The notes under the pieces: generated by a model | Seen by the model: only the letters and a program-made list of their open reading frames with translations | What the model was told of the DNA's origin: nothing | Database searches by the model: none | Translations under genes and position numbers: made by a program | In this document: one piece after another, positions 26,888 to 45,436 of the stretch | Layout: the number at the start of each line of letters is the position of its first letter | How positions within the stretch are numbered: position 1 is the first letter of the stretch | Assembly: GCA_028282195.1 (NCBI GenBank) | Contig: JANQII010000148.1 | Span: 24,322 to 88,321, forward strand | Length of the DNA: 64,000 nucleotides | Direction of reading: 5' to 3' | DNA from: Prolixibacteraceae bacterium | Lineage (GTDB): Bacteria > Bacteroidota > Bacteroidia > Bacteroidales > Prolixibacteraceae

Positions 26888-27604
26888 CTAAATAAACTTC
26901 TCCCTTTTCTGTAAATTGAACAGACCGTAAAGCATAAATAGCAAAGTACCAATAACCAAAAACAATCGGTTTTTAAGGGCAATGCCTTCCCAAATCATTT
27001 CATTCATATTTTGTGGCACCTGAAATGGGTTCAGGAAAATATTCCATTGAGTACGTTCCAGGTTTTCACTCAAAATTAAAGCCAGAACTCCTACGACAAT
27101 CATTACCACAGCCGTTCCGTTTCCATTTTTCACAATGGTTGAAAACATGAAAGCCAAACTTCCCAGAAACAAAACCGGGTACATTACCTGCCACGACATT
27201 TCCAATAAATTAATCGGAGTTAAAAAAATGTACGCCAAACCTGTAAAACCTAACAGCAGGACAAAAACCAGTATAAAAACCATTACCAATCTTACCAGCC
27301 ACACTTTGTAGCGATAGTCAGGAATCCCAAACAGTATCTCCAGAATTCCAGAGTCCACATCATTTTGAATACCAAAGGTCATTGGGTAAAAAATCAGCAG
27401 CATAGCAGGAAAAAGTAATATATCATAAACGAATTCTTCATCCGGCAATTCGCCATTCCAAACCCCTGAAATTGAAATAAACACATAAAAGGCTAAGGCT
27501 GCCAATAAAAACCAGATAAAGCGCCCTGCAAAAATTATTCGCATGTTATAGCGAACCATCCGGGTTATCAGGTTCAGTGTGTTTTTTATTTTTTTAATGT
27601 TCAT
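26888..27604 (-). CDS. ABC-2-type membrane permease (6 TM)
   Basis: 238 aa, six hydrophobic helices, last gene of the pump operon. Confidence 0.6.
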   Translation of the reverse strand: MNIKKIKNTLNLITRMVRYNMRIIFAGRFIWFLLAALAFYVFISISGVWNGELPDEEFVYDILLFPAMLLIFYPMTFGIQNDVDSGILEILFGIPDYRYKVWLVRLVMVFILVFVLLLGFTGLAYIFLTPINLLEMSWQVMYPVLFLGSLAFMFSTIVKNGNGTAVVMIVVGVLALILSENLERTQWNIFLNPFQVPQNMNEMIWEGIALKNRLFLVIGTLLFMLYGLFNLQKREKFI

Positions 27605-27721
27605 TAAAAAATGAATTAATATTAATAGATCAAGTCATTCCGAGAACCTACCCAATTTTATTAGGCATAATGAGGAAATGACAGTTTATTTTTATTTATA
27701 AGACCCTTTCAGGTGCAAGCA

Positions 27722-27869
27722 CACTGACAGGTCTTTGTCTTTCCCAAAACCTGTCAGCGTTCACAGAACCTGACAGCGTTGAAACAACTGAACAAAAATC
27801 TGTCATTGGCAACTTGTTTCGGAATCTGTTCCCTATAGAGATCCTGATCCCGAGTACTCGGGACAGGAT
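27722..27869. repeat. Intergenic repeat cluster (CTGWCAG words plus REP-like hairpin)
   Basis: AACCTGTCAGCGTT (27748-27761) and AACCTGACAGCGTT (27767-27780). Hairpin ATCCTGaTCCCGAGtaCTCGGGACAGGAT (27841-27869). Confidence 0.55.
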
Positions 27870-27893
27870 GACTCTTTTACTATGGTCTGTATA

Positions 27894-30800
27894 TCACTTC
27901 AAATCCTTTATCAAACACAGATACGCATCTTCAAGTACCGGTTTGGCCTGTAAAGCACCCTCTGCAGGTTTATCCTTGCCAAGTACGCGCACACGAATCA
28001 TGTCCTCAACACGCATATGATGAACCACCATTTGCTTATTTGGCATTTTATCAAATTCTGAAGCTGGCACATCATATTGCCATACCAAATCATCTGCCAG
28101 ATTAACCATGTCAACAGGTGTTCCATGATATTTTACCCTGCCACGGTTAATTACAGCTACCTGGTTACACGAACTGGAGATATCTTCAATAATATGCGTT
28201 GAGAAAATCACAATTCGCTCACGGCTCAGTTCTACCAACAGGTTTCTAAAACGAATCCGTTCCCTTGGATCAAGACCTGCCGTTGGTTCATCAACCACCA
28301 GGATTTTTGGTAAATGAAGCAAAATCTGCGCTATCCCAATTCGCTGTTTCATACCCCCTGAAAACGAACCAATTTTATCGTTTCGTTTCTCCCACATATG
28401 CACCGATTTCAGTACATACTCAATTCGTCTCTCCCGGGTTTCCTTATCTGCCAAACCTTTGAGCAATGCCTGATATTCGAGAAATTCAATGGCAGGCATA
28501 TTTTCATAGGTGCCAAACTCTTGCGGTAGGTAACCAATCAAACCTTGCAATTCTTCCCGTTTCTTTTGGGTGTCAATTCCATTAATCCAAATCTTTCCAT
28601 AACTCTGATCCAGAATTCCACAAATGATCCGCATCATGGTTGATTTACCAGCCCCGTTTGGACCAAGCAAACCAAACATTCCGGTTCCAATGTCAAGGGA
28701 GACCCCATTCAATGCTTTAAATGGCTGACGACGTTTCCCAATTACAGGAATCTGTTTTACCAGACGGAAAATACTTCTCCTTAATGCACCAAAACGTCCG
28801 GTAATTCGATCAATATTAATTTTTTCTTCGTACAAGCGTTTTGCTGTGACGAAAACCAATAAGCTCAAATACCATAAAACCACCACTGTTACAACCAGTC
28901 CTATTGAATCCGTTTTCTTCCATAAAAAGAACAGCTCAACTAAAGGCAAAATCCAAAACAAGAATCCTTTACTATACTTGTCTGTTAAAAGGAATCTTTT
29001 TCTACGATTAACCTCAAATCGACGATTTAGGTAAATACCAAATGGACTCCACATTCGATTAACGAATAAGTAAACAGCTACCACCAAGGCAATTACCCAA
29101 AACGATGGATTCAGGAAAATAAAGGTGAAATAGATCATGAAGCCTAGTAACGGCAATTGCCAGATCAATTGGTCAAATTCTTTAATTGATTGGTATTCTT
29201 TTTCCAAACCAGCGCGCCTGCGAATATTTAATCCCCCTTGCCACTCCCTGGAGAAACGAGCCGGACGATCGTAAATCTTGACCAGATTTTGAACAACAAT
29301 ATGCAGCTTTTCATCTTCCCCAATCAGGCGTGTACCTGCTTTTTTCAAACTATTTAAAACAAACCAGGTCGTTCCCGGAACCAAAACAATTGCCAATACG
29401 GTATCCAGCATCTTCCAGACAGTAGAATCGACATTCGTGTAAATCAGCACAAAGGCTCCAGTCATTGCCGCCAACTGAAATACTTTCAGTTTCCAATTCA
29501 GTTGATAAAACCACTGTAAAGCACTTTCCAGTCCTGAATAAAAGGTTGGAATAAAAATAAGTGTCAGCAACGTACTTAAGGCCAAACCACCTATAACAAT
29601 AATGGCAAATGGAGCACCAATTACGCTAACATATTCTGCCTGCCCCATCGCCAATGGCATCATAGCAACAATAGTCGTAATTGCTGTAATCAGAATAGGA
29701 CGCACGCGAGACAAACCAGCCGTCATCAATGCCCGTGACCTTCGATAGCCACGTTTGCGAAGAATATTGCTGTAATCAATTAATATGATTCCATTGTTTA
29801 CCACAACCCCCAGTAAAATCAAAAATCCAATCATCGTATTGGCATTGAACAAACTGTTTCCTGTTATTATCAAAGCAAGCAATGATCCTATTGCAGCCAG
29901 GGGAATTGAAAACAACAAGACAAAAGGCGTGGCAACCGATTCAAACACCGAAGCCAAAATCATGAATATTAAGATGATTGCCGCCCAAATAAGGAAGTTA
30001 AATTCAGCCAGTTCATTTTCTTCATGAATGATTTCAGCAGCTACTCCTGAAGGGAAATTATAACCTGCAATCAACTCATCAATTTCATACCGATAAGATG
30101 CAAGCAAATCTTTGGATTCCTGAGCCTCATCAATCATGCTGTAGGTAATCTCAATCTGTTTCTCCTGATTAACCCGATTTATCCCAGCCAATCCCCGGGC
30201 ATAAATTAACCGGCTAAAATCTTCCAACTCATGCAGACCTCCTGCAGCATCACTAACCTGCAGTGCTTTCAGGTCGTCCATGGTTCGAACATCCTCATCT
30301 TCATCCGTTTCTTCGCCCTGTTTAATTACAATTTCATATTCATCCACGCCTTGATTGAACATCACTCCAGTGCTAATGTCTCCGGAAAATGAATTCAATT
30401 CAGAAGATACTTCTGATGCCTGGATATTGTACTCTGTCATTAACAGCGGATCAAAAATCATCTGAACCTCCGGTCGATTATCAGAAACATTAACCCTTGC
30501 CCGCTCAATAAAATCCATTTCTTCCAGAAAGTATTCGATATCGTTGGCAATGGTCTGCATCAGTTCAAAGTCTTCCCCTTTCAATACAATCTTCTCTTCC
30601 TCTGCCCCAATTCCAAGTAGCCGTTCAAAATCACCCATCATATTCCGACCAGCACCTCCAAAGTTTCTGTTCGTTTGTACCTGCTCAAATGAAATTTCTG
30701 CCTGATCAATATTTTTAGTCAGCTCATTTATGGATGACTTTATTTCAGCAAAGGTCCTCCCGTCAATTTCTTCGTATTCTTCAACCAACCGAACTGTAAC

Positions 30801-32600
30801 AACTGCTTCTTCCTCCTCAATCCGACTAATAACATCCAACTTTTCCTTTACATCTTCCAGTTTCTCTTCAATCTTAGCAACTGTCTTATCGGTGGTTTCA
30901 AGGCTAGATCCAGATGGCATTGTGACAAATAGTTGCACCTGTTCTTCTTCAACTTCCTGCAAGGAACTCACGCTAACTGCCAGGCTAATAAAAACGGTCA
31001 GGAAGAAAATTGTTACCCCCCCGATAATTGTTGCCAGTGGTTTGCGCATGCTAGATTTCAGCAATAGCAGGTAAATCTGGACCATTCGGTTATTCGTCGT
31101 AACCTTCTCGTAAAAGATGCTTTTTCCTTTTCTTCTTTTCAAAATGAGATGAATAGTCATTGGCACAAACAGCAAAGCTACAGCCAGAGAAACCAATAAG
31201 GTGGAAATGATAGAAACCCCGACATTTTTACCCAGCATTTCAATCATAAAATTGGTTGAAAAAACAAATGGTAGGAAAACGGTTATTGTCGTCAATGTTG
31301 CTGCAACAATGGAACGCCAAACTTCAGTTGTTCCCTGAATCACGGCTTTATCACTATCCACACCTTTCCCGGAAAGCCGGTAAATATTTTCAAGCACTAC
31401 GACACTATTATCCAGAAGCATACCGATGGCCAATGCCATGCCAACCAGCGTCAGGCTATTCAGGGTAATATCATAAGCATAAAAGAAGTTGAAAGCGGTA
31501 AAAACTGAAACAGGAATGGCTAACGCAATGAAAGCTACTATTCGAATATTCTTCAGAAAAATCCACAACACAAAAACTGCCAGCAGCCCACCGATAAGTG
31601 CCAAATCGATAATCTGATCAATGTTCTCCTCCATGGTTTCAGCAGCATTGTGCTGGATAACAATTTCAATATCCTTACCCGAAAGCCTATTATTCAGTTT
31701 TGCAATCAACTCCTGTGTATCATGGGATAACTCGATCTGGTTGGCTTGCGAATCATTAATCAACTGAATAGTGACTGCTTCTTTACCATTTACACGGCTA
31801 AAACTGGTTTCTTCCTTTACACCAAACCGAACCTCGGCAATATCTTTCAAAAGAATTGGACCATCAGCCACAACCAGGTTTTCGATGTCGGTAATTTGAT
31901 CGTATTCAGCGGTAACATGCACGAAATAAAGTCGGTCCTTTTCTTTCAGGTTGCCAACATAACTTCGGGATTGTGAATTCTGCGAAAGCTTGGAACGAAT
32001 TTGTCCCGGGGTAATCTGGTAAGCTTCGCATGCCTCCATGTCCAGGATCAGCTCAATTGATTTTTCCTGCCCGCCATAAACATTTACCCCGGCAATACCA
32101 TCCAGGTTTTCAAGGTCAGGAGCAATTTCCTGATCAACCAAATTCCGAACACGATTTATGCCTCCGCTGCCCCGGGCCTGCAGCTCCATGAATTGTGCGT
32201 CAATCTGCGAAAGATCAACCCGCGTAACATCTACCTGAACATCTTCAGGCATGCTACTTTGAATTTCGTTTATTTTTTCCTGAAGTTTGAGATAGGCAAA
32301 ACCAGAATCAACATCTTTCTGATAATACACCACAATCATTATCCGCCGGGAAGTAATATTGGTCTCAAGCGACTCAATGCCTTCTAAAGTGCTGATAGCT
32401 CCCTCCAAAGGAATAGCAACTTCATTCTCCAGATATTCAGGGTCAGCTTCACGAACGGACATTGCCTGAACAAAAAGGAAAGGCAATTCAGCATTAGGCA
32501 ACAACTCCATCTTTAGCTGCTTGTAGGACACGTAACCCAAAAGGGTCAGTCCAATAAACAACATGGAAATGAATGTTTTTCTATCTATTATAAATTTCAT
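27894..32600 (-). CDS. Fusion protein: RND efflux permease, extra TM helices and an ABC ATPase
   Basis: Continuous 1568-aa ORF. RND part is aa 1-1030 (GMLLDNSVVVLENI). ABC part has Walker A GPNGAGKST, signature FSGGMKQR, Walker B ILVVDEPTAGLD and H-loop STH. Confidence 0.85.
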   Translation of the reverse strand: MKFIIDRKTFISMLFIGLTLLGYVSYKQLKMELLPNAELPFLFVQAMSVREADPEYLENEVAIPLEGAISTLEGIESLETNITSRRIMIVVYYQKDVDSGFAYLKLQEKINEIQSSMPEDVQVDVTRVDLSQIDAQFMELQARGSGGINRVRNLVDQEIAPDLENLDGIAGVNVYGGQEKSIELILDMEACEAYQITPGQIRSKLSQNSQSRSYVGNLKEKDRLYFVHVTAEYDQITDIENLVVADGPILLKDIAEVRFGVKEETSFSRVNGKEAVTIQLINDSQANQIELSHDTQELIAKLNNRLSGKDIEIVIQHNAAETMEENIDQIIDLALIGGLLAVFVLWIFLKNIRIVAFIALAIPVSVFTAFNFFYAYDITLNSLTLVGMALAIGMLLDNSVVVLENIYRLSGKGVDSDKAVIQGTTEVWRSIVAATLTTITVFLPFVFSTNFMIEMLGKNVGVSIISTLLVSLAVALLFVPMTIHLILKRRKGKSIFYEKVTTNNRMVQIYLLLLKSSMRKPLATIIGGVTIFFLTVFISLAVSVSSLQEVEEEQVQLFVTMPSGSSLETTDKTVAKIEEKLEDVKEKLDVISRIEEEEAVVTVRLVEEYEEIDGRTFAEIKSSINELTKNIDQAEISFEQVQTNRNFGGAGRNMMGDFERLLGIGAEEEKIVLKGEDFELMQTIANDIEYFLEEMDFIERARVNVSDNRPEVQMIFDPLLMTEYNIQASEVSSELNSFSGDISTGVMFNQGVDEYEIVIKQGEETDEDEDVRTMDDLKALQVSDAAGGLHELEDFSRLIYARGLAGINRVNQEKQIEITYSMIDEAQESKDLLASYRYEIDELIAGYNFPSGVAAEIIHEENELAEFNFLIWAAIILIFMILASVFESVATPFVLLFSIPLAAIGSLLALIITGNSLFNANTMIGFLILLGVVVNNGIILIDYSNILRKRGYRRSRALMTAGLSRVRPILITAITTIVAMMPLAMGQAEYVSVIGAPFAIIVIGGLALSTLLTLIFIPTFYSGLESALQWFYQLNWKLKVFQLAAMTGAFVLIYTNVDSTVWKMLDTVLAIVLVPGTTWFVLNSLKKAGTRLIGEDEKLHIVVQNLVKIYDRPARFSREWQGGLNIRRRAGLEKEYQSIKEFDQLIWQLPLLGFMIYFTFIFLNPSFWVIALVVAVYLFVNRMWSPFGIYLNRRFEVNRRKRFLLTDKYSKGFLFWILPLVELFFLWKKTDSIGLVVTVVVLWYLSLLVFVTAKRLYEEKINIDRITGRFGALRRSIFRLVKQIPVIGKRRQPFKALNGVSLDIGTGMFGLLGPNGAGKSTMMRIICGILDQSYGKIWINGIDTQKKREELQGLIGYLPQEFGTYENMPAIEFLEYQALLKGLADKETRERRIEYVLKSVHMWEKRNDKIGSFSGGMKQRIGIAQILLHLPKILVVDEPTAGLDPRERIRFRNLLVELSRERIVIFSTHIIEDISSSCNQVAVINRGRVKYHGTPVDMVNLADDLVWQYDVPASEFDKMPNKQMVVHHMRVEDMIRVRVLGKDKPAEGALQAKPVLEDAYLCLIKDLK

Positions 32601-32625: not shown

Positions 32626-35600
32626 TTAATTTCTTCTAAACCGGTCACGAATAACTTCAATTCCTTCGTACATACATGGGATAACCACCAGCGTCAACAA
32701 GGTTGAAGTAATCAAGCCGCCAATTACAGCCAAAGCCATAGGCGAACGCAATGATGCGCTTTCTCCGATTCCCAAAGTCAATGGGAACAAGGCCAGAATT
32801 GTGGTTAAGCTGGTCATAATAATTGGACGAATCCGTTGTTGCCCGGCCTGCAATATGGCTTCCAAACGTTCCATGCCGGATTTGCGCAACTGCAATATCC
32901 GATCGACCAGAATAATCGAATCATTTACTGCAATCCCCACCAACATAATGATACCGATATAAGCCATAATGTTAAAGGTTTTCCCAAGCAGAAAGAACGT
33001 AAGTACCGAGCCAACAGCTGCCAACGGGATTGTAAGCAAAATTGTAAACGGGTGCAGCAATGACTCAAACTGGGAAGCGAGCACCATGTACACCAAAATG
33101 ATTGAAAGCATTAAGGCAAAGCTTAAACTCGCCATTGATTCCCGGCGTTTTTCTTCTTCACCACTAATGTTAATCCTGTAATCCGGAGGCACATTAATTG
33201 GGGCTATGGCAGTTTGGATTTCCTTAACTGCCTTATCCAAAGGCATATCTTTTTCGAGTTGTGCGGTAATTTTGCCAATTCGATTTTGGTTTCTGCGGAA
33301 AACTTCTTTGGGTGATTGTCCAATGGTAATATCAGCCAATTCATTTACCCTAAATTCCTGATCATTGCTAACGATACGCAGTTCATCCAGTTGACTTAAA
33401 TTTTTATCGGGCAGTTTGATAGTAATGTCCTGCATTTCACCTTGTCGCTCAATTTCTCCAGCAACTTTACCTTCCAGTTGATTTTGAATTTGAGAAACGA
33501 TATTGGTTACACTCAGGTTAAACATACCTGCCCGTAAGCGGTCAATCACGACTTCAACTTCAGGGGAACCTTCTTCCAACGATGATTCAAAATTGTACAT
33601 CCCCGGTAGGTTTTGCACACGCTCTTTTACTTCAGCAGCCAATCCCTCAATGATCTCCAAATCTTCACCCTGAACTTCAATCACCAGCGGGGCTTCATCT
33701 GTGCCCATAATGCTTTTTAGAGCTGTCTCATCTTGTTTGAAATTAATCTCCATACCTGGCAAATCGCCAACTACCCGGCTAATGGATTGAATGGCTTTGG
33801 TTGAAGCAATCTGGCTTTCCGGTTTCAAAATGATTTTTATAGTCGCGGTATTCTCTCCTTCAAAAATATCGGTAGATGAGCTGCTGATTCCTTTTGTTGG
33901 TCCAATATGACTGTAAACAGTTTCAATTTCACCACCCAACAGTTCAGAAATAATTGTTTCAAGGTTATCCACAGCTGCTGTGGTACGCTCTAATCGAGTC
34001 CCTTCCTGCATCCGAATTTCTACACTGAATTCACGCGTTTCAGTTTTTGGCATGAATTCATTTCCAATAAGCGGAATAAGAAAAATTGATCCCCCAACCA
34101 ATAAAAAGCTTATTAGAATTATTGCCCATTTTGCTTTTAATATTTTTTCGAGAAAACGTCCGTAACCTTTTACCTTAACCGATTGAATTTTCCGTTCTTT
34201 TTTCTTCTTATAAAAAAGATTAAAAAGCATTGGAATAACCAATATGGCAACGACCAACGAAGACAAAAGTGAAAATGCTACCGTCCATGCCTGGTCTTTG
34301 AACAACTCGCCAGAAGCACCATGCAAATAAACAATAGGCAGAAATACAATAATCGTTGTTATTGTTGAAGCTGTAATTGCCCCGCCAACCTGGGAAGTCC
34401 CAACAATTGCAGCCTCACGAACAGACATCCCATTTTCATGATTTCGGAATATATTCTCCATGACCACAATGGCATTATCCACCAACATACCGGCACCAAG
34501 CGCAAGGCCACCTAAGGTCATAATGTTCAGGCTAAGGCCATTGAAATACATTAGGTTAAATGTAGCAATAACCGAAATCGGAATAGCAATACTGATAATT
34601 AATGTGCTTCCAAATCTTCTTAAAAAGATAAACAGAACAAAAACGGCCAACACAACTCCCAGCAAAGCAGATTCCTCAACTTCATTGATTGCATCGTTAA
34701 TAAAACTTCCCTGGTTTGTGACTACTTGAATATTATAGCCGGGCAATGCCTTTTGAATTTCGGTAAAAGCCTCATCAATTTGCTCTACCGCTTTAACCGT
34801 GTTAAAGCGGGTTTCTTTATAAATTGAAAGCCCCAGGCATCGGTTACCATTTAACCTTACAATGTTTTCGGGGTCTTTATTTTGAAAACTAACCGTTGCA
34901 ACTTCACGCAAAAATATGGGGGCAAACGAAGCTGTATTGTCGTCTGCAATTACTCGCTTATAGCCAACAATCACTTCCTCAAAATCTTCGATATCTGTTA
35001 ATAAGCTTACACCTTTTACCACATAACGCAAGCCCATTTCTTCAATGGAACCGCCCGAAATATCCTGGTTAAAACTTTGAATACGACTGCTGATTTCATC
35101 CATGGTCAGCCCGTAAGCATCCAACAAATACTGGCTGGTTTCAATCAGCACTTCATTGTCTTCTGAACCTGACACTTCAACATCAGCAACCCCTTCCAAA
35201 CGAATCAGCTCATTACGGATATAATTTTCAGCTACTTTGCGTAATTCATTCATATCATCAATCGATGAATGGCTTAACCCATAAACCATTACTGGTGACG
35301 TATTCGGGTCATGTTGGGTAATGTTGATCTCATCAATTTCTTCGTTCTGCGCAAAAGATGTAACTGCTTTTTGCAAATCCAGGAAAGCATCATCCATATC
35401 TTTATCCCAGGCATACTCTACTGTAATTTGTGCGCTCCCAACTTTTGAAACAGAAGATACCTGAACAACATCCGACTGCCGAATTGCCAAAGCTTCCAGG
35501 TTTTCCACAAACTGTTTTTCCATTTCTTCAGGTGGCCGTTCCCCTGATTCCAGCTCAATAAACAACCTGGGGTTGTTCAGCTCCGGGAACAGGTCAACCC

Positions 35601-35700
35601 CCAGCTTGTCGTAGGAAATGTAGCCCAGCAGTACAACCCCAAGTACCATCATTAGAATGGTAACCGGAAAGTTGACTGAAAATTCGCTTAATTTCTTCAC
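32626..35700 (-). CDS. RND efflux permease (AcrB-like)
   Basis: 1024 aa, 12-TM/two-large-loop layout, GMLVDNAIVVMENI. Confidence 0.93.
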   Translation of the reverse strand: MKKLSEFSVNFPVTILMMVLGVVLLGYISYDKLGVDLFPELNNPRLFIELESGERPPEEMEKQFVENLEALAIRQSDVVQVSSVSKVGSAQITVEYAWDKDMDDAFLDLQKAVTSFAQNEEIDEINITQHDPNTSPVMVYGLSHSSIDDMNELRKVAENYIRNELIRLEGVADVEVSGSEDNEVLIETSQYLLDAYGLTMDEISSRIQSFNQDISGGSIEEMGLRYVVKGVSLLTDIEDFEEVIVGYKRVIADDNTASFAPIFLREVATVSFQNKDPENIVRLNGNRCLGLSIYKETRFNTVKAVEQIDEAFTEIQKALPGYNIQVVTNQGSFINDAINEVEESALLGVVLAVFVLFIFLRRFGSTLIISIAIPISVIATFNLMYFNGLSLNIMTLGGLALGAGMLVDNAIVVMENIFRNHENGMSVREAAIVGTSQVGGAITASTITTIIVFLPIVYLHGASGELFKDQAWTVAFSLLSSLVVAILVIPMLFNLFYKKKKERKIQSVKVKGYGRFLEKILKAKWAIILISFLLVGGSIFLIPLIGNEFMPKTETREFSVEIRMQEGTRLERTTAAVDNLETIISELLGGEIETVYSHIGPTKGISSSSTDIFEGENTATIKIILKPESQIASTKAIQSISRVVGDLPGMEINFKQDETALKSIMGTDEAPLVIEVQGEDLEIIEGLAAEVKERVQNLPGMYNFESSLEEGSPEVEVVIDRLRAGMFNLSVTNIVSQIQNQLEGKVAGEIERQGEMQDITIKLPDKNLSQLDELRIVSNDQEFRVNELADITIGQSPKEVFRRNQNRIGKITAQLEKDMPLDKAVKEIQTAIAPINVPPDYRINISGEEEKRRESMASLSFALMLSIILVYMVLASQFESLLHPFTILLTIPLAAVGSVLTFFLLGKTFNIMAYIGIIMLVGIAVNDSIILVDRILQLRKSGMERLEAILQAGQQRIRPIIMTSLTTILALFPLTLGIGESASLRSPMALAVIGGLITSTLLTLVVIPCMYEGIEVIRDRFRRN

Positions 35701-35712
35701 GGTTAATCCTTT

Positions 35713-36771
35713 CTATTTGATGATTTTCACTTTTGAGCGGTTTCTCAATGTCTCGAAACCTTTGACAACAAGCCGGTCATTAGCTTTCAACCCGGATGTT
35801 ATTTCAACCATATCTTCGTTTTCGTAACCAAACGTGACTTGTTTCTGCTCAGCTGTTCCTTTAACCACGATAAAAACAGATTTGCCACGCTGATTGGAAA
35901 CCACAACATCTTTTGGAATGACTATTACACTATCTTTCCGGTCGAGAATTATTTCTGATTGAACAAACATCCCGGGACGTAATTTCAAATCGTCATTACT
36001 GATGGTCAGTTTACCAAGAAATGTGCGTGTCTCGGTACTAATTGCAGGCGATAATTCGCTGACAACTCCTTTTAATGTGTCATCAGGCAGGGTGTAATTC
36101 ATCACCCGAACTTCCTGTTTCTGCTTCACATCATTAATATACTTTTCCGGAAGGTTTACTTCAAGCAGAAGTTTTTCATAGCTCATCAGACTAACTACAG
36201 CAGTTGCACTTGCTACCTTTGTACCTTTTGTAAAATATGGAAGTTCAGTGATTACCCCTCTAAACGGGGCCCGGACCTTCATCTTTTCCAACTGGATTTC
36301 GGCACGCTCAAAATCATATTTTGCATTGATAAATGAAACTTCTGAATTGCGAAATTCCCTCAAGGTCACTCCCCCTTTTTCATAAAGCGACTCCTGCTTT
36401 TGAAACTCTTGCTCAGAAATCTCCAGATTTAGTTTTTTCGACTCCAAAGCAATGCCATTCACATACTCTTCATCTTTCAATTCAACGATAACCTGTCCTT
36501 CATTCACTTGATCGCCCAACGCAAAAGGTCTTCCGGTTTTAGGATTGACGGCCAGGTAATAATCCCCTGCCATTTCAGTTATCAGGCTTACTTCTTTAGT
36601 TGCAACAACGGTTCCGGTCGTGTTGATGGTTTGCTCAATTGATCCTGGTTTTAGATCATCAACCGAAACTGGAATTGCCAGATCAGCCTCAACATCCTGG
36701 GTTTGATTGTTACAGCTTGCCAATGCAAAAAGCAAAAGCATAAATAATGGGAAGTGTATTTTTTTAATCAT
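35713..36771 (-). CDS. RND periplasmic adaptor (MFP) lipoprotein
   Basis: Lipobox LFALASC and hairpin/lipoyl/beta-barrel pattern. ATG at 36771 avoids overlap with the TolC stop. Confidence 0.9.
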   Translation of the reverse strand: MIKKIHFPLFMLLLFALASCNNQTQDVEADLAIPVSVDDLKPGSIEQTINTTGTVVATKEVSLITEMAGDYYLAVNPKTGRPFALGDQVNEGQVIVELKDEEYVNGIALESKKLNLEISEQEFQKQESLYEKGGVTLREFRNSEVSFINAKYDFERAEIQLEKMKVRAPFRGVITELPYFTKGTKVASATAVVSLMSYEKLLLEVNLPEKYINDVKQKQEVRVMNYTLPDDTLKGVVSELSPAISTETRTFLGKLTISNDDLKLRPGMFVQSEIILDRKDSVIVIPKDVVVSNQRGKSVFIVVKGTAEQKQVTFGYENEDMVEITSGLKANDRLVVKGFETLRNRSKVKIIK

Positions 36772-36778
36772 GACGATA

Positions 36779-38257
36779 TTATTTTTGACGTTTTTCGATG
36801 ATTTCTTCAGGAACAATTCCAATGTTATTTTCAAAATCGTAAAGGGTCTGGATTTTCAGGTTCAGCAATTCAATTTTGTAATCAATTAATGATTGCGCAT
36901 AAGCCATCTTCCTTTCTGAAAGCTGGGTCTGGAACAGGTTCAGGTCCATACTTGTCAGATCCCCATTGGCGTAACGCTCCAGGTTTATTTCGTAGGTAAG
37001 TTGAGCATTCTTCTCGCTTTGTTTGGCTATCTCAATCTGGTTCAACTGGTTTTGAAGGTTTCGGTATACCTGCCGGATATCAAGGACGATCTGGGTTTTC
37101 TGCTCATCAAAGCTCAATTCCTGTGTTTTTATAACTGCCTCCTGCGCTTTTATCCGTGATTTCTTTTCGCCCCAATCCCATAAAGGAATATTGAAGCCAA
37201 CAGAAACACGAGGGTTGTTGGTAGGATTGTCATAAATATTATTGATCTTTTCATCTTCGCCAATTATCCCGATTGAAAGGTTCAAATCCCCCTTAAACTC
37301 ATTCATCCCCTTCGTGCGGATTAACTGGAACTGTGAGGTTTCAATATCAATCTCACGCTGGCGGATTTCCATTCGGGAATTTATGCCATGATCAATTGCC
37401 TTTACCAGGTCAACTTCAACCGGAAGTGCTTCAACATTGGCCATTACCCCGATCTCTTCCATAATGTCCATTCCTATGTATTGTTTAAACTGGTCTTTTG
37501 CATTTTCCAGTGTTACCTTCTTATTCTGCACATCGGATTGTGCCGTAGCATAGTTCAATTCCGCCTGGTACAACTCTTCTTTCGCTGCCAGGCCAGCTTC
37601 AACTTTGTTTTTGGTAATCTCGTAACTCTTTTGGGTATTGGTAAATTCATCCCTGGAAATACTTAAACTCATTTGTGCCAAATACACATTGTAAAAAAAC
37701 TGGGTCACACTTTTCTCAAGGTTCAGCTTCTGCATGGCATAACTTAAGTTGGCATTTTCCAGGTCCAGTTCCAGTTCTTTTAACTCCAGTTTTAATCGAT
37801 TGTAAGTGAACAATGGCTGGTTTAAGCTCAAATACAAATTATTGCTGAATGAGCGGTCTTCAACATTATTGAAATCACTGGTGCTGCGTTGCCAACCAAA
37901 CCGATTGTTCAATGCAAGGGTACCATCTGTCAGTAAAATGGGTTGCGAAACGGTAAAAGTACCAGATGCCCCCAAAGATTCCTGGGTAAACCACTGGGAA
38001 TTGAAATCATCAAACGAACGGGTTTTGCTATAATCGATTGGATTAAGGTTTAACGAAAACTGGGATTTTAATGCCGCATTTTGTGCATTTAGCGATTCCT
38101 GCGAACGTTCCAGGTTCAGCAATGAACGTCTGATATCCGGGCTGTTCCGGCTTGCAATCTGCAAAGCACTTTCCAGGGTCAGCAGTTGTTGTGCAAATAA
38201 GCTGCCCACTCCCAGGAACATCAGGATTATTAGAATATAAAATCGTTTGTTGTTCAT
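36779..38257 (-). CDS. TolC-family outer membrane efflux protein
   Basis: Signal peptide, two-fold internal repeat, long coiled-coil segments. Confidence 0.9.
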   Translation of the reverse strand: MNNKRFYILIILMFLGVGSLFAQQLLTLESALQIASRNSPDIRRSLLNLERSQESLNAQNAALKSQFSLNLNPIDYSKTRSFDDFNSQWFTQESLGASGTFTVSQPILLTDGTLALNNRFGWQRSTSDFNNVEDRSFSNNLYLSLNQPLFTYNRLKLELKELELDLENANLSYAMQKLNLEKSVTQFFYNVYLAQMSLSISRDEFTNTQKSYEITKNKVEAGLAAKEELYQAELNYATAQSDVQNKKVTLENAKDQFKQYIGMDIMEEIGVMANVEALPVEVDLVKAIDHGINSRMEIRQREIDIETSQFQLIRTKGMNEFKGDLNLSIGIIGEDEKINNIYDNPTNNPRVSVGFNIPLWDWGEKKSRIKAQEAVIKTQELSFDEQKTQIVLDIRQVYRNLQNQLNQIEIAKQSEKNAQLTYEINLERYANGDLTSMDLNLFQTQLSERKMAYAQSLIDYKIELLNLKIQTLYDFENNIGIVPEEIIEKRQK

Positions 38258-38267
38258 ATCGTTATTT

Positions 38268-41200
38268 TTATTGTTTTATCAGTTTTATTGCGTCAGCTAC
38301 AACCATTCTGTTTTCAGATTCATTGCTAAGTTCAACAACTGCAGTATCTGGCGAAAAGTAAAAAGCACCCAGGTAGTTCCATCCTTCTTCAGCAGTCTTG
38401 ATGCTTAATGTTGCATCTTCTTCCCCATCATCATGGTGGATGGTATAATGATATTCCCCTTTTTCATCGCTGCCCCCTCTTCTTCCCCTTCTTCTATCTT
38501 TATAGATGTAGGAATAAACTTCATAATAACCAGCCTCAGAAATGGGTATGTTCCAACTAACCTTTAAGTCTCCATCACCCGAACGGATGTAATAAGCTGA
38601 GCGAACATAGGCTCCATAAAAATCGGAATGGGTTGTTTGAGTCCAGCTACGCGGTGGCCGCCAGCCTGAAAACCCGGAATAGTCTGATTTATTGACATCC
38701 TCTTTAATCAGGAGTTTTCTTAATAGGCTTTCATTATCACTTTTTGTTACCGTAAAAGAAGGGTCTTCATTATCCAGAATAATCTCGTTATCTTCTACTA
38801 TTCTTACCGGATCATCAACAACTTTTTCCCCTTCGAATGGTACTGCATCTTTATCTTCTTTTATATCTTCAAAAGGCATTCGTAGCGCTGAAGGTATATT
38901 CCTGGAAGTAAGTGTATTAATTGATGCACCCCTTGGGTTATCATTTAGCAAAAAGCTGACCTCCTTCGTTTGGTTACCGTCCAAATGAACCAGTTTAGAG
39001 ATCGTTTCAGGGGCACCCCCCATACCTCCAAAGCGACCGCCCCGGCCAGGTCCACCTCCCAAACGAAAATCAACAGAAATGATACCCTCAACATCTTCTG
39101 TATTTGTAAGCTTAAACTTCACCATCGTTTTTAACTGATCTCCGTCAAGTACATTTACAGCACTAACATTGCCAACCAAAAATGCCGGAAGCTTTGTACT
39201 GCTAAACCAGTTTTCCATGAATGGGATCAAGTCAATATCAAATTCTTTTTTTAGGGCATCATTAAAATCTTCAATAGTTGTTGTCCTGAATTTCACGCCA
39301 TTCAAATAACTGTACAGGAAATCTTCAAAAGCATCGTCCTCTGCTTTTCGTTTAATTGTTGAGAATAAAGCTTCACCTTTTTGCTGAATGACATTATCCA
39401 TAATTTGTACTTGTTCCGGGTCATTTAAAATTTCCTCGAAACTCTGTGAAAGTAAAGCCAGGTTGCCTTTCTCATCTTCAGACATTCCCTGAAGATCACG
39501 AACAAAACCAAACCTTGGATTATCTGTTGCCTGCTTTTTATAAGATTCGAAAACACGATCGGTAACCGGCCACTTATCAGAGCTTATATAGTAAGCATAA
39601 TTATAAAAAAGAGGGAAAGCATAATAGGGGTTCAACTTCTCTTCGACTTGTAATTCTCCTTGTCTTCTGTTAAAATCAGGTCGACCTTGCTCCTGAGTAA
39701 AGGATGCCAGAAAATTTTGCAGTACCCGGATTTTCTTCTCTTCCTTTGTCAGGTTTTCGTCGTCACCTCGTCCAAACCTTCTACGCGATTCCATCCGCCC
39801 ATAAAAATCCGCTTCCCTTACCAATAATCCTTTTTCAGCAAAAAGAACCATTTCGGGTTGTATGTTTTCCCTTGAGCCAGTCAGAATTCTTTCATAAGAA
39901 TAAAACTGAAGCGGAACTTCAACCAGGGAAAAACGCTCAAACGGGTAAAACAAATCGATATTCCGCTCAAAATCCTGTAACGATTCAGTAATAATATCCG
40001 GGATTGTATCTTTTATTTCTTCGAAGAACTCCGAAAAGTAATCGTGTCCTTTCAGGTAATAAATAGTGAATTCAAGCCCATCAATATCTGCATTTTTCTT
40101 TTCATAGTTGCCAATAGAAAGTGATATTTGCGATTGGGCGTGAGTTGATTCAAAAACAAAATCATCATCTTGCACCTCCACCAAACCTTGTGAAACAGGA
40201 ATTAAGTTAGGAGTAGCCTTTACCTGTAAACGATAATCGCTAAACTGCCGGGAAAACCATTGTTTGTTCTCTTCCCCATAGCCTGCTCCTGGTATTGGAT
40301 ACCAATTACATTCGCGGGTCAATAATACATATTCATGGGTAACGAATGCGTGTCGTTTATCAATCTGGTACAAGAAGTTTCGATAAGTTTCTTTTCTTGT
40401 TTCATCCTCAACATCCAAATAACAGGCAGCTTCATTAATTGTACCTTCATAAATAAAGTTGATTTTAGCTCTTTCCTTTTGTTTTAAATCAAGTCCGGTT
40501 AATTCTACTATTCCCAGGTTCTGCTCAAAAGGATGCTGCTTACCATTAACTTTTACCTCTTTTACTACCAAACCGGGATTAAGGCTGAAAATTACCCTAT
40601 TGATAACTTCTGACTCCCGGTTCCTGACAGACAGTTCTGATTCACATAAAATCTTATTCCCAAGATGCTCCAGCTTAATATCGTATGATCTGACTGATAC
40701 CTGCTTCGAATCCTTGTAGCTATCGTTCAAACTAATCATCTCTGCCCTAAGGTTCTGTTCTTTCAAAAAAGAATGTACATGCAAATATCCCAGATACAAG
40801 CTCCCAACAAAACAAATAGTTCCAAAAACTCCAGAGAACCAACGCATTGAAGTTGAGTGGGGCAAGCGTCTTAACAGCAGAACTGAATAAAAAATAAAGG
40901 CAAGTCCAAACCCAAAATACATGCCCCGATGGGTTAGGATTGTATCAATATTTCCAAAGCCTACAAAATCTGAATAAGCTAGCGGAATATTGTAGGCCAT
41001 ATAATCAAAGAGGTAGTAAAACTTATCTTGCAAATAGAACAAGGAAATAGCAACATATCCTAACAGGACCACAAACGTTACTGCCTGGTTTCGAATGAAG
41101 GACATCACGACAAAAGACAGGCCCATTATAAAAATAAGCGTGGGTAAACTAATCACCAGAAAATAATAGATATAGCTTATCCAATTTACATCGGTATGCT

Positions 41201-41615
41201 TTGTGATTAAATTAAAAATGAGTGCAATGAGTAAAATAATAATATTCAAAACAACGAATACCAGAAGATTTCCTATGGTTTTCCCTACAACATATTCTCC
41301 GTTAGTCATTGGGCGCATATAAATTACTTCCGTGGTATCCAGTTTTTTATCACGTTTCAAAAAATCGGAGGCCAGGAAGATGGCAATAATGGCCTGAACT
41401 ACATTCAGGAACAGCAAATTTATATATGGTATTAATGACGGCAACCCTTTAAGCGACCATTCCCCGGCACCACCATTCGACTCTATTAATACGCCAAAAT
41501 TGAATAATGACAAAAACACCATTGAAATGATGGCAAATATGCGGAAGAACCAACTTCTTAAAAGCGTTTTCGTTTCGTAACGTGCAATGGATCGTATGTT
41601 GTGAATTGAAATCAT
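38268..41615 (-). CDS. ABC-2 permease domain fused to a large M1-aminopeptidase-like ectodomain lacking HEXXH
   Basis: N-terminal region of about 290 aa with 6 TM helices. Extracytoplasmic region of about 800 aa. Gly/Arg-rich segments GGPGRGGRFGGMGGAP and RRRGRRGG. C-terminal tail ...VVADAIKLIKQ. Confidence 0.7.
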   Translation of the reverse strand: MISIHNIRSIARYETKTLLRSWFFRIFAIISMVFLSLFNFGVLIESNGGAGEWSLKGLPSLIPYINLLFLNVVQAIIAIFLASDFLKRDKKLDTTEVIYMRPMTNGEYVVGKTIGNLLVFVVLNIIILLIALIFNLITKHTDVNWISYIYYFLVISLPTLIFIMGLSFVVMSFIRNQAVTFVVLLGYVAISLFYLQDKFYYLFDYMAYNIPLAYSDFVGFGNIDTILTHRGMYFGFGLAFIFYSVLLLRRLPHSTSMRWFSGVFGTICFVGSLYLGYLHVHSFLKEQNLRAEMISLNDSYKDSKQVSVRSYDIKLEHLGNKILCESELSVRNRESEVINRVIFSLNPGLVVKEVKVNGKQHPFEQNLGIVELTGLDLKQKERAKINFIYEGTINEAACYLDVEDETRKETYRNFLYQIDKRHAFVTHEYVLLTRECNWYPIPGAGYGEENKQWFSRQFSDYRLQVKATPNLIPVSQGLVEVQDDDFVFESTHAQSQISLSIGNYEKKNADIDGLEFTIYYLKGHDYFSEFFEEIKDTIPDIITESLQDFERNIDLFYPFERFSLVEVPLQFYSYERILTGSRENIQPEMVLFAEKGLLVREADFYGRMESRRRFGRGDDENLTKEEKKIRVLQNFLASFTQEQGRPDFNRRQGELQVEEKLNPYYAFPLFYNYAYYISSDKWPVTDRVFESYKKQATDNPRFGFVRDLQGMSEDEKGNLALLSQSFEEILNDPEQVQIMDNVIQQKGEALFSTIKRKAEDDAFEDFLYSYLNGVKFRTTTIEDFNDALKKEFDIDLIPFMENWFSSTKLPAFLVGNVSAVNVLDGDQLKTMVKFKLTNTEDVEGIISVDFRLGGGPGRGGRFGGMGGAPETISKLVHLDGNQTKEVSFLLNDNPRGASINTLTSRNIPSALRMPFEDIKEDKDAVPFEGEKVVDDPVRIVEDNEIILDNEDPSFTVTKSDNESLLRKLLIKEDVNKSDYSGFSGWRPPRSWTQTTHSDFYGAYVRSAYYIRSGDGDLKVSWNIPISEAGYYEVYSYIYKDRRRGRRGGSDEKGEYHYTIHHDDGEEDATLSIKTAEEGWNYLGAFYFSPDTAVVELSNESENRMVVADAIKLIKQ

Positions 41616-43724: not shown

Positions 43725-43725
43725 T

Positions 43726-44523: not shown

Positions 44524-44527
44524 GGCT

Positions 44528-45343: not shown

Positions 45344-45436
45344 GGCATAGATAATTAGTGTCCTGTCAATGTATGACACAAATTAAAGCCATTTATTTCA
45401 ATTATGCAAATGTTCATTAAACTTTTGTAAAACAAT

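What the first reader, a model, noticed from the sequence alone, without database searches (positions are those of the whole stretch)
27894..32600. RND permease covalently fused to an ABC ATPase whose N-terminus is split by a four-helix membrane insertion
This is one uninterrupted 1568-codon ORF.

- aa 1-1030 form a complete AcrB-type RND permease (TM4 motif GMLLDNSVVVLENI). It is a paralogue of the neighbouring 1024-aa RND (GMLVDNAIVVMENI).
- aa 1040-1085 add two hydrophobic helices.
- aa 1098-1113 (KLHIVVQNLVKIYDRP) look like the first beta-strand of an ABC nucleotide-binding domain.
- About 180 aa follow, with four strongly hydrophobic helices: LPLLGFMIYFTFIFL, FWVIALVVAVYLFV, FLFWILPLVELFFLW and IGLVVTVVVLWYLSLLVFV.
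- The ATPase then resumes at FKALNGVSLDIGTGMFGLLGPNGAGKST, followed by FSGGMKQR, ILVVDEPTAGLD and STH.

In the stand-alone paralogue (41628-42521) the same two segments are only 5 residues apart: KIYPNGNRALNDVNINIENGMFGLLGPNGAGKSS. The even helix counts (12+2+4) would keep both ATPase pieces cytoplasmic, so the topology is self-consistent.

PMF-driven RND pumps and ATP-driven ABC pumps are normally alternative inner-membrane engines for TolC/MFP systems. I know of no characterised protein that joins both in one polypeptide.
Basis: partly seen in the sequence, partly recalled or inferred. Interest (0 to 1): 0.8.

Follow-up and report, generated by a model that had tools for sequence, protein, structure and literature searches.

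The report
RND pump fused to split ABC ATPase
This is a real, evolutionarily conserved gene in which a proton-driven-type (RND) efflux pump and an ATP-driven-type (ABC) motor are one protein, with the motor's first strand separated from the rest by four membrane helices; databases label it generically, and I found no study of it.

Summary
Window 27894..32600 (-) is one 1568-codon ORF: ACR_tran at aa 2-1022 and ABC_tran at aa 1297-1441.

It is not an assembly artefact. 30 of 35 orthologous loci carry an uninterrupted 1554-1616-aa ORF. They span Bacteroidales, Marinilabiliales, Cytophagales, Calditrichota and Latescibacterota, and include isolate genomes.

The ATPase really is split. Grafting aa 1096-1113 directly onto aa 1294 onward restores an end-to-end, ungapped match to stand-alone ATPases. 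The gain is +13.8±1.9 bits in 35/35 members, against +1.7 for a shuffled control. Distant members read a canonical IRNLTKIYG. The 180-aa insertion carries four hydrophobic helices, and family-wide charge bias puts both ATPase pieces in the cytoplasm.

The gene belongs to a conserved seven-gene cluster: ABC ATPase, ABC-2 permease with an inactive M1-like domain, OMF, MFP, plain RND, the fusion, and a 238-aa protein that folds like an ABC-2 permease.

My best reading (inferred) is a two-stage relay. An ABC-2 module moves substrate across the inner membrane to a tethered RND heterotrimer, which expels it through MFP/OMF.

Both RNDs lack the AcrB Lys940 and Asp408 equivalents, so an ATP-powered RND is not excluded. 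Eight literature searches found nothing.

The parts
27894..32600 (-). Whole RND-ABC fusion ORF, 1568 aa plus stop
   Evidence: Orthologous uninterrupted ORFs of 1554-1616 aa in 30/35 loci.
29532..32600 (-). RND permease module, aa 1-1023: 12 TM and two large periplasmic loops. TM4 is LLDNS, TM10 is VVNNG, TM11 is RVRPILIT.
   Evidence: Pfam ACR_tran 2-1022, E 5.7e-163. Best solved relatives are MdtB and CmeB. Relay positions.
29346..29483 (-). Two extra transmembrane helices, TM13-TM14 (aa 1040-1085), which return the chain to the cytoplasm
   Evidence: Hydropathy 2.0 and 1.8 averaged over 35 members, with a 6-residue turn between them. AF2 helices at 13-33 and 37-66 of the 545-aa construct.
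29262..29309 (-). Displaced ABC beta1 strand with the A-loop tyrosine (aa 1098-1113, KLHIVVQNLVKIYDRP)
   Evidence: Splice test: +13.8±1.9 bits and extension to HMM position 1-3 in 35/35 members. L, V, K and Y are invariant in A1. The segment is canonical NLTKIYG in Latescibacterota and Marivirga members.
28722..29261 (-). 180-aa insertion in the beta1-beta2 loop (aa 1114-1293). In order it holds a conserved RF.REW helix, TM15-TM16 (aa 1145-1185; 29046-29168), a K/R-rich loop, TM17-TM18 (aa 1213-1252; 28845-28964), a beta1-lookalike KINIDRITGRFG, and a helix.
   Evidence: Homologues of aa 1030-1300 occur only in about 1550-1590-aa proteins or fragments of them.
27894..28721 (-). Remainder of the ABC nucleotide-binding domain plus its C-terminal domain (aa 1294-1568). 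Walker A, Q-loop, SGG signature, Walker B with catalytic Glu, D-loop and H-switch are all intact.
   Evidence: Pfam ABC_tran. NCBIfam GldA/DrrA-type matches start at profile position about 15. Motifs. Fold matches to ABC ATPases TM_1403, NosF and LptB.
26888..27604 (-). Conserved downstream 238-aa six-helix membrane protein. It is a divergent ABC-2-type permease and the probable transmembrane partner of the fused ATPase.
   Evidence: Present directly after the fusion in every locus that extends far enough, and often overlapping it. The top nine PDB hits of its AF2 model (pTM 0.71) are all ABC-2 TMDs: PmtCD, NosY, CcmB, KpsM, ABCG5. Pfam ABC2_membrane_3/_2/_4 hit a minority of members, best E 4.9e-6.
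32626..35700 (-). Plain RND paralogue, 1024 aa, 29% identical to the fusion's RND module
   Evidence: Always immediately upstream of the fusion, with start/stop overlaps in several loci.
35713..36834 (-). Membrane fusion (periplasmic adaptor) protein
   Evidence: Pfam HlyD_D23 and HlyD_3. Conserved in the cluster.
36779..38257 (-). Outer membrane factor (TolC-like)
   Evidence: Pfam OEP, E 5.2e-49. Conserved in the cluster.
38268..41615 (-). ABC-2 permease (about 7 TM) fused to a large extracytoplasmic M1-peptidase-like domain plus a Golvesin_C domain, 1115 aa. It has no HExxH or GxMEN motif.
   Evidence: Pfam. Motif check. Its C-terminus is seen upstream of the OMF gene in most loci whose flank reaches that far (27 of 35), including Latescibacterota L036.
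41628..42521 (-). Stand-alone ABC ATPase, 297 aa. It belongs to the same subfamily as the fused NBD (41% identical) and has a contiguous beta1-beta2.

Best explanation
SHOWN (near-certain).
- The gene encodes one polypeptide made of a complete AcrB/MdtB-type RND permease, two extra TM helices, the beta1/A-loop strand of an ABC-2 (DrrA/GldA-type) ATPase, a 180-residue insertion with four TM helices, and the rest of a catalytically complete ATPase.
- It sits in a seven-gene cluster that is conserved as a unit: ABC ATPase, ABC-2 permease with an inactive M1-like periplasmic domain, OMF, MFP, plain RND, RND-ABC fusion, small ABC-2-like permease.

INFERRED mechanism.
- The cluster builds one envelope-spanning exporter with a composite inner-membrane engine.
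- The fused ATPase dimerises and, together with the downstream ABC-2 permease, forms a type-V ABC exporter. The upstream ATPase/permease pair may act with it or alongside it.
- This exporter moves the substrate from the cytoplasm or inner leaflet to the periplasmic face.
- Because the ATPase is covalently and multiply stitched into the membrane next to the RND (TM13-18), the substrate is released right at the entry of the RND.
- The RND then expels it through the MFP and OMF across the outer membrane.
- The strictly co-conserved plain RND paralogue suggests an MdtB2C-like heterotrimer with two fusion protomers and one plain protomer. That would supply exactly the two NBDs an ABC dimer needs.
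- The substrate is unknown.
For: Architecture:
- Domain calls and ORF continuity.
- Split NBD.
- Topology.
- Intact catalytic motifs in both ATPases.

The cluster is a unit:
- Identical gene order in about 30 loci, from Prolixibacteraceae to Marivirga, Calditrichaceae and Latescibacterota.
- Start/stop overlaps between the plain RND and the fusion, and between the fusion and the 238-aa gene, in many loci. This fits co-translated subunits.

The 238-aa protein is an ABC-2 permease:
- Fold matches.
- Weak Pfam ABC2_membrane hits.
- A UniRef name 'ABC-2 type transport system permease' for one orthologue.

Other support:
- The ATPase subfamily normally pairs with ABC-2 permeases, some of about 1200 aa like the upstream one.
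- The best solved RND relative is MdtB, a subunit of a heterotrimeric tandem-gene RND.
- Established knowledge, not tested here: RND pumps take substrates from the periplasm or outer leaflet and co-operate with single-component inner-membrane transporters. ABC NBDs work as dimers.
Against: - No experiment and no complex model exists. Stoichiometry, substrate and hand-off are all inferred.
- A homotrimeric RND would carry three NBDs, which does not fit a dimeric ABC engine.
- The fold match of the 238-aa protein is marginal by E-value (0.02-0.4, TM 0.47-0.57).
- Its profile finds nothing in PDB by sequence and shows no similarity to the upstream permease's TM domain.
- In this window a 289-nt spacer separates the fusion from the 238-aa gene, unlike most orthologous loci.
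- The AF2 model does not confidently place beta1 on the NBD.
- Both RND paralogues lack the canonical Lys940 and Asp408 equivalents. Ordinary proton-driven RND cycling, which this model assumes, is therefore not assured.
Confidence: 0.5

Rival explanations
1. ATP-powered or ATP-gated RND. NBD dimerisation and hydrolysis are transmitted through TM13-18 to the RND transmembrane domain. They drive or license its conformational cycle in place of, or together with, the proton-motive force. The small downstream membrane protein is only an accessory.
For: - Family-wide, the fusion's RND has Asn at the AcrB Lys940 position (31/31) and a non-acidic residue, Asn in 28 of 31, at the Asp408 position. Only the Asp407, Arg971 and Thr978 equivalents remain.
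- The NBD is stitched into the membrane by six helices directly after TM12.
- The TM13-18 module exists only in this fusion.
Against: - The plain paralogue, which has no ATPase, shows the same D-N / N-N(D) pattern. The unusual relay is therefore a subfamily trait, not a correlate of the fusion.
- A cognate ABC-2-like permease is always encoded next door, which already gives the NBD a conventional partner.
- No precedent exists for NBD-to-RND coupling, and no coupling helix has been identified.
Confidence: 0.2
2. One heterodimeric ABC-2 transporter tethered to the RND. The fused NBD pairs with the stand-alone 297-aa ATPase, and the 238-aa permease pairs with the 1115-aa permease. A single fusion protomer per RND trimer anchors this ABC machine, and its big periplasmic M1-like/Golvesin_C domain handles the substrate.
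For: - Both ATPases are in the same subfamily, 41% identical.
- Both permeases are of the ABC-2 kind.
- All four genes are co-conserved even in Latescibacterota.
- It resolves the three-versus-two symmetry problem with one fusion protomer per trimer.
Against: - Both NBDs keep fully canonical catalytic motifs, whereas heterodimeric ABC pairs often have one degenerate site.
- Gene adjacency pairs A1 with P1 and the fusion with the 238-aa gene.
- The closest stand-alone ATPase/1200-aa-permease pairs exist on their own elsewhere.
- No direct test was possible.
Confidence: 0.15
3. The ATPase is a regulatory or assembly module. An example would be an ATP sensor, or a clamp controlling pump assembly or MFP engagement as MacA-MacB cross-talk does. 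It would have no transport step of its own.
For: - The beta1-beta2 loop is also the site of the regulatory insertion of CFTR NBD1 (own knowledge, not tested).
- The conserved cytoplasmic motifs in the insertion (RF.REW, NI.RI.GRF) have no assigned function.
Against: - All catalytic residues are invariant across phyla, as expected for a working motor.
- A permease partner is co-conserved.
Confidence: 0.08
4. Artefact: two genes joined by a sequencing or assembly error, or a decaying pseudogene.
For: Some long-read metagenome assemblies show the gene broken into pieces (L030).
Against: - 30 independent assemblies, including finished isolate genomes (Marivirga tractuosa, Prolixibacter bellariivorans), have the same uninterrupted frame.
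- The junction region contains invariant residues.
- The breaks occur only in error-prone assemblies, where neighbouring genes are fragmented too.
Confidence: 0.01

Closest known systems
MdtABC-TolC (E. coli): tandem RND genes forming an MdtB2C heterotrimer
   Same: - Two paralogous full-length RND permease genes sit in tandem behind one MFP gene.
- MdtB is the best solved-structure match of the fusion's RND module.
   Different: - Neither Mdt subunit carries an ATPase or extra TM helices.
- Mdt subunits have the canonical Asp-Asp/Lys relay, whereas here it is D-N / N-N.
- Heterotrimer formation is only inferred here.
MacAB-TolC: the ABC-driven tripartite efflux pump
   Same: An ABC ATPase fused to membrane helices works with an MFP and an OMF.
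   Different: - MacB is a type VII ABC protein: an N-terminal contiguous NBD, 4 TM and a periplasmic domain, with no RND.
- Here the NBD is of the ABC-2/DrrA/GldA type, C-terminal, split, and attached to an RND.
ABC-2 (type V) exporters with separate subunits, such as NosDFY, PmtCD, KpsMT and CcmAB. E. coli YbhGFSR is an ABC-2 system with an MFP (own knowledge).
   Same: - The NBD fold and sequence subfamily match: NosF is among the top fold matches.
- The downstream 238-aa protein folds like NosY, PmtD, CcmB and KpsM.
- The upstream permease has ABC2_membrane domains.
   Different: - In those systems the NBD is a soluble, contiguous subunit.
- None is fused to an RND or interrupted by TM helices.
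CFTR NBD1 regulatory insertion (own knowledge: Lewis et al. 2004)
   Same: An insertion at the same topological site, between beta1 and beta2 of an ABC NBD. This shows that the loop tolerates extra sequence.
   Different: - The CFTR insertion is about 30 disordered soluble residues.
- Here it is 180 residues with four membrane-spanning helices, so the strand and the rest of the domain are joined through the bilayer.
Functional co-operation of single-component inner-membrane transporters with RND pumps (own knowledge)
   Same: The same two-step logic as proposed here: cytoplasm to periplasm, then periplasm to outside.
   Different: Known cases involve separate, unlinked proteins. Here the two engines are one polypeptide in one operon.

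Membership tests
RND superfamily, HAE-1/MdtB-like permease | Full-length ACR_tran architecture: 12 TM and two large periplasmic loops | tested here: met
   Pfam PF00873 aa 2-1022 against profile 3-1018 of 1021, E 5.7e-163. Full-length alignments to CmeB and ZneA.
RND superfamily, HAE-1/MdtB-like permease | Canonical proton relay: TM4 Asp-Asp, TM10 Lys, TM11 Arg/Thr (AcrB D407, D408, K940, R971, T978) | tested here: not met
   Only the D407, R971 and T978 equivalents are present. D408 is replaced by Asn and K940 by Asn. This holds in 31/31 fusion orthologues, and the plain paralogues show the same kind of departure.
RND superfamily, HAE-1/MdtB-like permease | Encoded with MFP and OMF genes | tested here: met
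   HlyD-family and OEP genes lie upstream in the window and in the orthologous loci.
RND superfamily, HAE-1/MdtB-like permease | Trimeric assembly and proton-driven transport | not testable with these tools
   Needs biochemistry or a complex structure.
ABC ATPase (ABC-2 / DrrA / GldA-type NBD) | Walker A, Q-loop, LSGGQ-type signature, Walker B plus catalytic Glu, D-loop, H-switch | tested here: met
   GPNGAGKST, YLPQ, FSGGMKQR, ILVVDEPTAGLD and STH are all present and invariant in alignment A1. NCBIfam GldA 2.5e-53 and drrA 5.7e-50, both below the curated cut-offs.
ABC ATPase (ABC-2 / DrrA / GldA-type NBD) | A-loop aromatic residue on beta1, contiguous with beta2 | tested here: not met
   The beta1/A-loop Tyr is present and invariant (aa 1110), but it is separated from beta2 by 180 residues that include 4 TM helices. 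Contiguity is not met; homology of the strand is.
ABC ATPase (ABC-2 / DrrA / GldA-type NBD) | beta1 completes the NBD beta-sheet in three dimensions | tested here: inconclusive
   AF2 makes aa 1099-1104 and 1108-1113 strands, but with pLDDT about 50-64 and pTM 0.47. Coordinates and contacts were not available.
ABC ATPase (ABC-2 / DrrA / GldA-type NBD) | Cognate ABC-2 transmembrane partner | tested here: met
   The downstream 238-aa protein is co-conserved. Its top nine PDB fold hits are all ABC-2 TMDs: prob 0.92-1.0, TM 0.47-0.57, E 0.02-0.4. Pfam ABC2_membrane hits occur in a minority of members. Physical pairing was not tested.
MdtBC-type heteromultimeric RND | Two paralogous RND genes in tandem with a single MFP | tested here: met
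   (29% identity).
MdtBC-type heteromultimeric RND | 2:1 heterotrimer | not testable with these tools
   Inference only.
MacB-type (type VII) tripartite ABC transporter | N-terminal NBD, 4 TM, and a large periplasmic domain between TM1 and TM2 (FtsX/MacB fold) | tested here: not met
   No MacB_PCD or FtsX Pfam hit. The NBD is C-terminal, the turns between the inserted helices are 3-6 residues, and the NBD subfamily is DrrA/GldA.

The most novel reading that the evidence does not exclude
The fusion is a primary-active, or dual-energised, RND pump. ATP binding and hydrolysis by the membrane-stitched NBD dimer drive the RND transmembrane bundle through TM13-18. This RND has lost the canonical Lys940/Asp408 proton relay. 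It would be the first RND-type peristaltic pump run by ATP rather than, or in addition to, the proton-motive force.
Probability: 0.17. Interest if true: 0.95.

Novelty: new variant of a known kind. Interest (0 to 1): 0.8.

Why it matters
RND and ABC transporters are taught as alternative inner-membrane engines of tripartite efflux systems. Here both are in a single polypeptide, conserved from gut Parabacteroides to marine Cytophagales and in two other phyla.

- If it works as a relay, it is the first hard-wired version of the 'cytoplasm to periplasm to outside' co-operation that has so far only been inferred between unlinked pumps.
- If the ATPase acts on the RND itself, it changes what is thought possible for RND energy coupling.
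- The membrane-interrupted NBD is also a natural experiment in ABC domain folding. A beta-strand and A-loop are delivered to the domain across a four-helix membrane hairpin pair.
- The family is currently hidden under the name 'efflux RND transporter permease subunit'. Several cultured, sequenced hosts exist (Marivirga tractuosa, Prolixibacter bellariivorans, Draconibacterium, Maribellus, Parabacteroides massiliensis), so the question is directly testable.

Tried and rejected
1. Assembly artefact or two genes. Rejected: the frame is uninterrupted in 30/35 orthologous loci, and breaks occur only at contig ends or in error-prone long-read assemblies.

2. The true beta1 might be the segment KINIDRITGRFG just after TM18. 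It looks like beta1, and tblastn aligned it to the N-terminus of a Heimdallarchaeota ATPase. Rejected: it adds only 1.3 bits to the stand-alone-ATPase HMM, like a shuffled control, and it degenerates in distant members. Its role remains unexplained.

3. The fusion-specific RND might have lost its proton relay while the plain paralogue kept it. Rejected: both share the D-N / N-N(D) pattern.

4. The upstream permease's M1 domain might be an active peptidase. Rejected: it has no HExxH or GxMEN motif.

5. Sequence-level proof that the 238-aa protein is an ABC-2 permease.
- hhalign against the TM domain of the 1115-aa protein gave probability 0.6%.
- A profile search against PDB sequences found nothing.
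- Only fold-level evidence and minority Pfam hits remain.

A shallower alignment, A3, was used instead.

7. The word-indexed protein search on the C-terminal 545 aa listed only proteins under 950 aa. Full-length proteins had to be recovered from genome loci and by exact look-up.

8. Literature. Eight full-text searches, including accession numbers, found no paper on an RND-ABC fusion. The 2021 Chem Rev review of tripartite systems mentions none. Absence from this open-access library is not proof of absence.

Full report
**Observation.** Window 27894..32600 on the minus strand is a single ATG-initiated ORF of 1568 codons.
- Pfam finds a complete RND permease: ACR_tran, aa 2-1022, profile 3-1018 of 1021, E 5.7e-163.
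- It also finds an ABC ATPase domain: ABC_tran, aa 1297-1441, E 3.2e-28.
- The neighbouring 1024-aa RND is a full-length paralogue, 29% identical.
- The stand-alone 297-aa ATPase at 41628..42521 reads SKIYPNGNRALNDVNINIENGMFGLLGPNGAGKSS, as claimed.

**Real gene, not an artefact.** I searched the C-terminal 545 aa against the protein collection.
- That returned hundreds of relatives at 52-76% identity. Many also carry the end of an RND domain, but all were shorter than 950 aa.
- Two of those sitting on long contigs proved to be pieces of frameshift-ridden long-read assemblies, where the neighbouring genes are fragmented too.
- A scan of one genome per GTDB species with alignment A1 gave 35 loci covering the whole C-terminal region.
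- In 30 of them the reading frame runs uninterrupted for 1554-1616 codons. Four of the other five are cut by contig ends and one (L030) is a fragmented long-read MAG.
- Hosts include cultured isolates: Prolixibacter bellariivorans, Draconibacterium mangrovi, Maribellus maritimus, Parabacteroides massiliensis, Bacteroides sp. 224, and Marivirga tractuosa (complete genome) and M. sericea.
- Hosts also include MAGs of Rikenellaceae, Marinilabiliaceae, Cyclobacteriaceae, Calditrichaceae and Latescibacterota.
- The full-length proteins are in RefSeq, UniProt and IMG. They are named only 'efflux RND transporter permease subunit', 'ABC transporter domain-containing protein' or 'AcrB/ABC-type multidrug transport system ATPase subunit'.
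- The window itself comes from a Prolixibacteraceae-like bacterium. The nearest named relative of the downstream gene is Gaoshiqia sediminis at 82%, and the best genome hits are Mangrovibacterium and Prolixibacteraceae MAGs at 71-72%.

**Is the ATPase really split?** NCBIfam ATPase profiles match only from about profile position 15, so the first strand is missing where it should be.
- Two upstream segments resemble an ABC beta1 strand. One is KLHIVVQNLVKIYDRP (aa 1098-1113), before the four helices. The other is KINIDRITGRFG (aa 1258-1269), after them.
- I built an HMM from 39 of the closest stand-alone ATPases and scored three constructs for each of 35 family members.
- Splicing aa 1096-1113 directly onto aa 1294 onward raised the score by 13.8±1.9 bits in all 35. 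It also extended the alignment, without a gap, to HMM position 1-3.
- The native sequence from aa 1256 gained 1.3±0.5 bits. A shuffled version of the beta1 segment gained 1.7±1.1.
- The spliced protein aligns end to end with stand-alone ATPases at 41-48% identity.
- The splice reproduces the canonical spacing: Y, five residues, then A-L.
- In the most divergent members the segment is textbook, for example LEIRNLTKIYG, IQSLTKIYG and ISNLTKIYN. The second look-alike decays in those members.
- L, V, K and the A-loop Tyr are invariant in alignment A1.
- The NBD is therefore interrupted between ...YDRP and FKAL... by a 180-residue insertion.

**Topology.** Averaged over 35 members there are six hydrophobic segments after TM12, with mean hydropathy 1.5-2.1.
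- They are arranged as three hairpins with turns of 3-6 residues.
- The loops that carry beta1, the inter-hairpin loop and the pre-NBD segment hold 14.3, 5.2 and 11.2 K+R on average.

**Structure prediction.** An AlphaFold2 model of aa 1024-1568 has mean pLDDT 73.9 and pTM 0.47.
- It predicts the six helices and an NBD whose best PDB matches are ABC ATPases: TM_1403, NosF, LptB and ABCA NBDs.
- aa 1099-1104 and 1108-1113 are modelled as strands, but at pLDDT 50-64.
- I could not inspect contacts, so three-dimensional completion of the sheet remains unproven.

**Exclusivity of the module.** An exhaustive HMMER search used aa 1030-1300 against 1.84 billion cluster representatives.
- It found 110 clusters at E≤1e-3.
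- Every full-length hit is 1550-1590 aa with the match at about 1030-1300.
- The rest are shorter sequences, mostly clear fragments, with no evident stand-alone version of the module.
- The helix/beta1/helix module therefore appears to exist only in this fusion.

In the orthologous loci the gene order matches the window: ABC-2 permease with an M1-like domain, OMF, MFP, plain RND, fusion, 238-aa protein.
- L036 lacks a detectable OMF gene, and the upstream permease was detected in 27 of the 35 loci.
- The stand-alone ATPase precedes the permease in the window.
- Stop/start overlaps between the plain RND and the fusion, and between the fusion and the 238-aa gene, are common.

**The 238-aa protein (26888..27604).**
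- It has no Pfam or NCBIfam hit of its own.
- It has six predicted helices plus an N-terminal amphipathic helix.
- Its AF2 model (pTM 0.71) matches ABC-2 transmembrane subunits in its top nine PDB hits: PmtCD, NosY, CcmB, KpsM and ABCG5.
- A minority of orthologues hit ABC2_membrane Pfam families, best E 4.9e-6.
- I conclude it is a divergent ABC-2 permease and the natural partner of the fused NBD. This rests on fold and synteny, not on sequence statistics.

**Other cluster components.**
- The 1115-aa upstream permease has lost the M1 catalytic motifs.
- Both ATPases keep all catalytic motifs.

**RND peculiarities.** I aligned the RND module to MdtB and CmeB and compared 31 fusion and 30 plain orthologues.
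- Both paralogues keep the AcrB Asp407, Arg971 and Thr978 equivalents.
- Both have Asn in place of Lys940, and almost always Asn in place of Asp408.
- About half of the plain paralogues have Asp one position after the Lys940 site. The fusion never does.
- The canonical HAE-1 relay is thus not met in either protein. Whether they are proton-driven is open.

**Mechanism.**
- What is shown: the architecture, its conservation, the split NBD at sequence level, the topology and the co-conserved partners.
- What I infer as most likely (about 0.5): a two-stage exporter. The ABC-2 module is the fused NBD dimer plus the 238-aa permease, possibly working with the upstream ATPase/permease pair. It brings substrate across the inner membrane. 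The tethered RND, probably a 2:1 heterotrimer with the plain paralogue that supplies two NBDs, ejects it through MFP/OMF.
- Rivals: an ATP-driven or ATP-gated RND (0.2), a single heterodimeric ABC machine anchored by one fusion protomer (0.15), a purely regulatory ATPase (0.08), and an artefact (0.01).

**Comparison with known systems.**
- It works like a merger of an MdtABC-type tandem RND pump and a NosFY/PmtCD-type ABC-2 exporter.
- It is not a MacB-type pump.
- It fails the HAE-1 relay criterion and the NBD contiguity criterion.
- The only precedent I know for an insertion at the beta1-beta2 site is the short soluble regulatory insertion of CFTR NBD1 (own knowledge).
- Eight full-text literature searches and a look through the major 2021 review of tripartite pumps found no description of an RND-ABC fusion.

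**Verdict.**
- The architecture is catalogued by automatic annotation but appears uncharacterised.
- I rate it a new variant of a known kind: a tripartite efflux system with a composite RND+ABC engine and a membrane-split NBD.
- Interest is 0.8.
- The most novel reading not excluded is an ATP-powered RND, at a probability of about 0.17.

Noticed in passing
window 28794-28829 (-), aa 1258-1269 of the fusion: A second beta1-like motif, KINIDRITGRFG, sits right after TM18. It is conserved in Bacteroidota members (NI.RI.GRF) but decays in Latescibacterota and Marivirga, and it adds no score to an ATPase HMM. Its role is unexplained.
   Followed up: partly
window 27605-27893: In this window a 289-nt spacer separates the fusion's stop from the 238-aa permease gene. 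In most orthologous loci the gap is 30 nt or less, or the genes overlap. The spacer holds a perfect 29-nt palindromic hairpin (27841-27869, unique in the window) and several CTGTCAG/CTGACAG repeats. It may be a small inserted element or a processing/attenuation site.
   Followed up: partly
window 38268-41615 (-): A 1115-aa ABC-2 permease (about 7 TM) is fused to a large extracytoplasmic M1-peptidase-like domain and a Golvesin_C domain. It has no HExxH or GxMEN motif, so it is probably a non-catalytic binding domain. Similar ATPase plus about 1200-aa permease pairs occur alone in other Bacteroidota (L051, L058, L075).
   Followed up: partly
window 32626-35700 and 29532-32600 (-): Both RND paralogues, across the whole family, lack the AcrB Lys940 and Asp408 equivalents: TM4 is D-N, and TM10 is N-N or N-D. 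Whether this relay variant is typical of Bacteroidota RND pumps outside this cluster was not determined.
   Followed up: partly
window 43344-45379 (-): A separate small module lies upstream of the operon: a GntR-family regulator (126 aa), an unannotated 265-aa protein and another ABC ATPase (283 aa, only 29% identical to the fused NBD). It looks like a YtrA-type GntR/ABC unit. A 231-aa protein with a weak DUF2807 hit lies between this module and the operon.
   Followed up: no
window 32565-32600 (-): An NCBI gene call for this same protein is 1556 aa, about 12 codons shorter than the ORF from the first ATG. The longer N-terminus MKFIIDR matches the RND profile from position 3, so the database start appears to be too far downstream.
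   Followed up: partly
L001 494-7132; L002 5900-10310; L030 6920-11637: In long-read metagenome assemblies the fusion gene, and the neighbouring RND and OMF genes, are chopped into 2-4 ORFs by frameshifts. This yields spurious 'half-RND plus ABC' proteins of 770-930 aa in protein databases.
   Followed up: yes
L034 (contig CAYFVQ010000257.1, labelled uncultured Eubacteriales): A complete cluster (OMF, MFP, RND, fusion) sits in a MAG labelled as Eubacteriales, a lineage of the monoderm phylum Firmicutes. This is either a binning or taxonomy error or an unexpected host. It was not examined.
   Followed up: no
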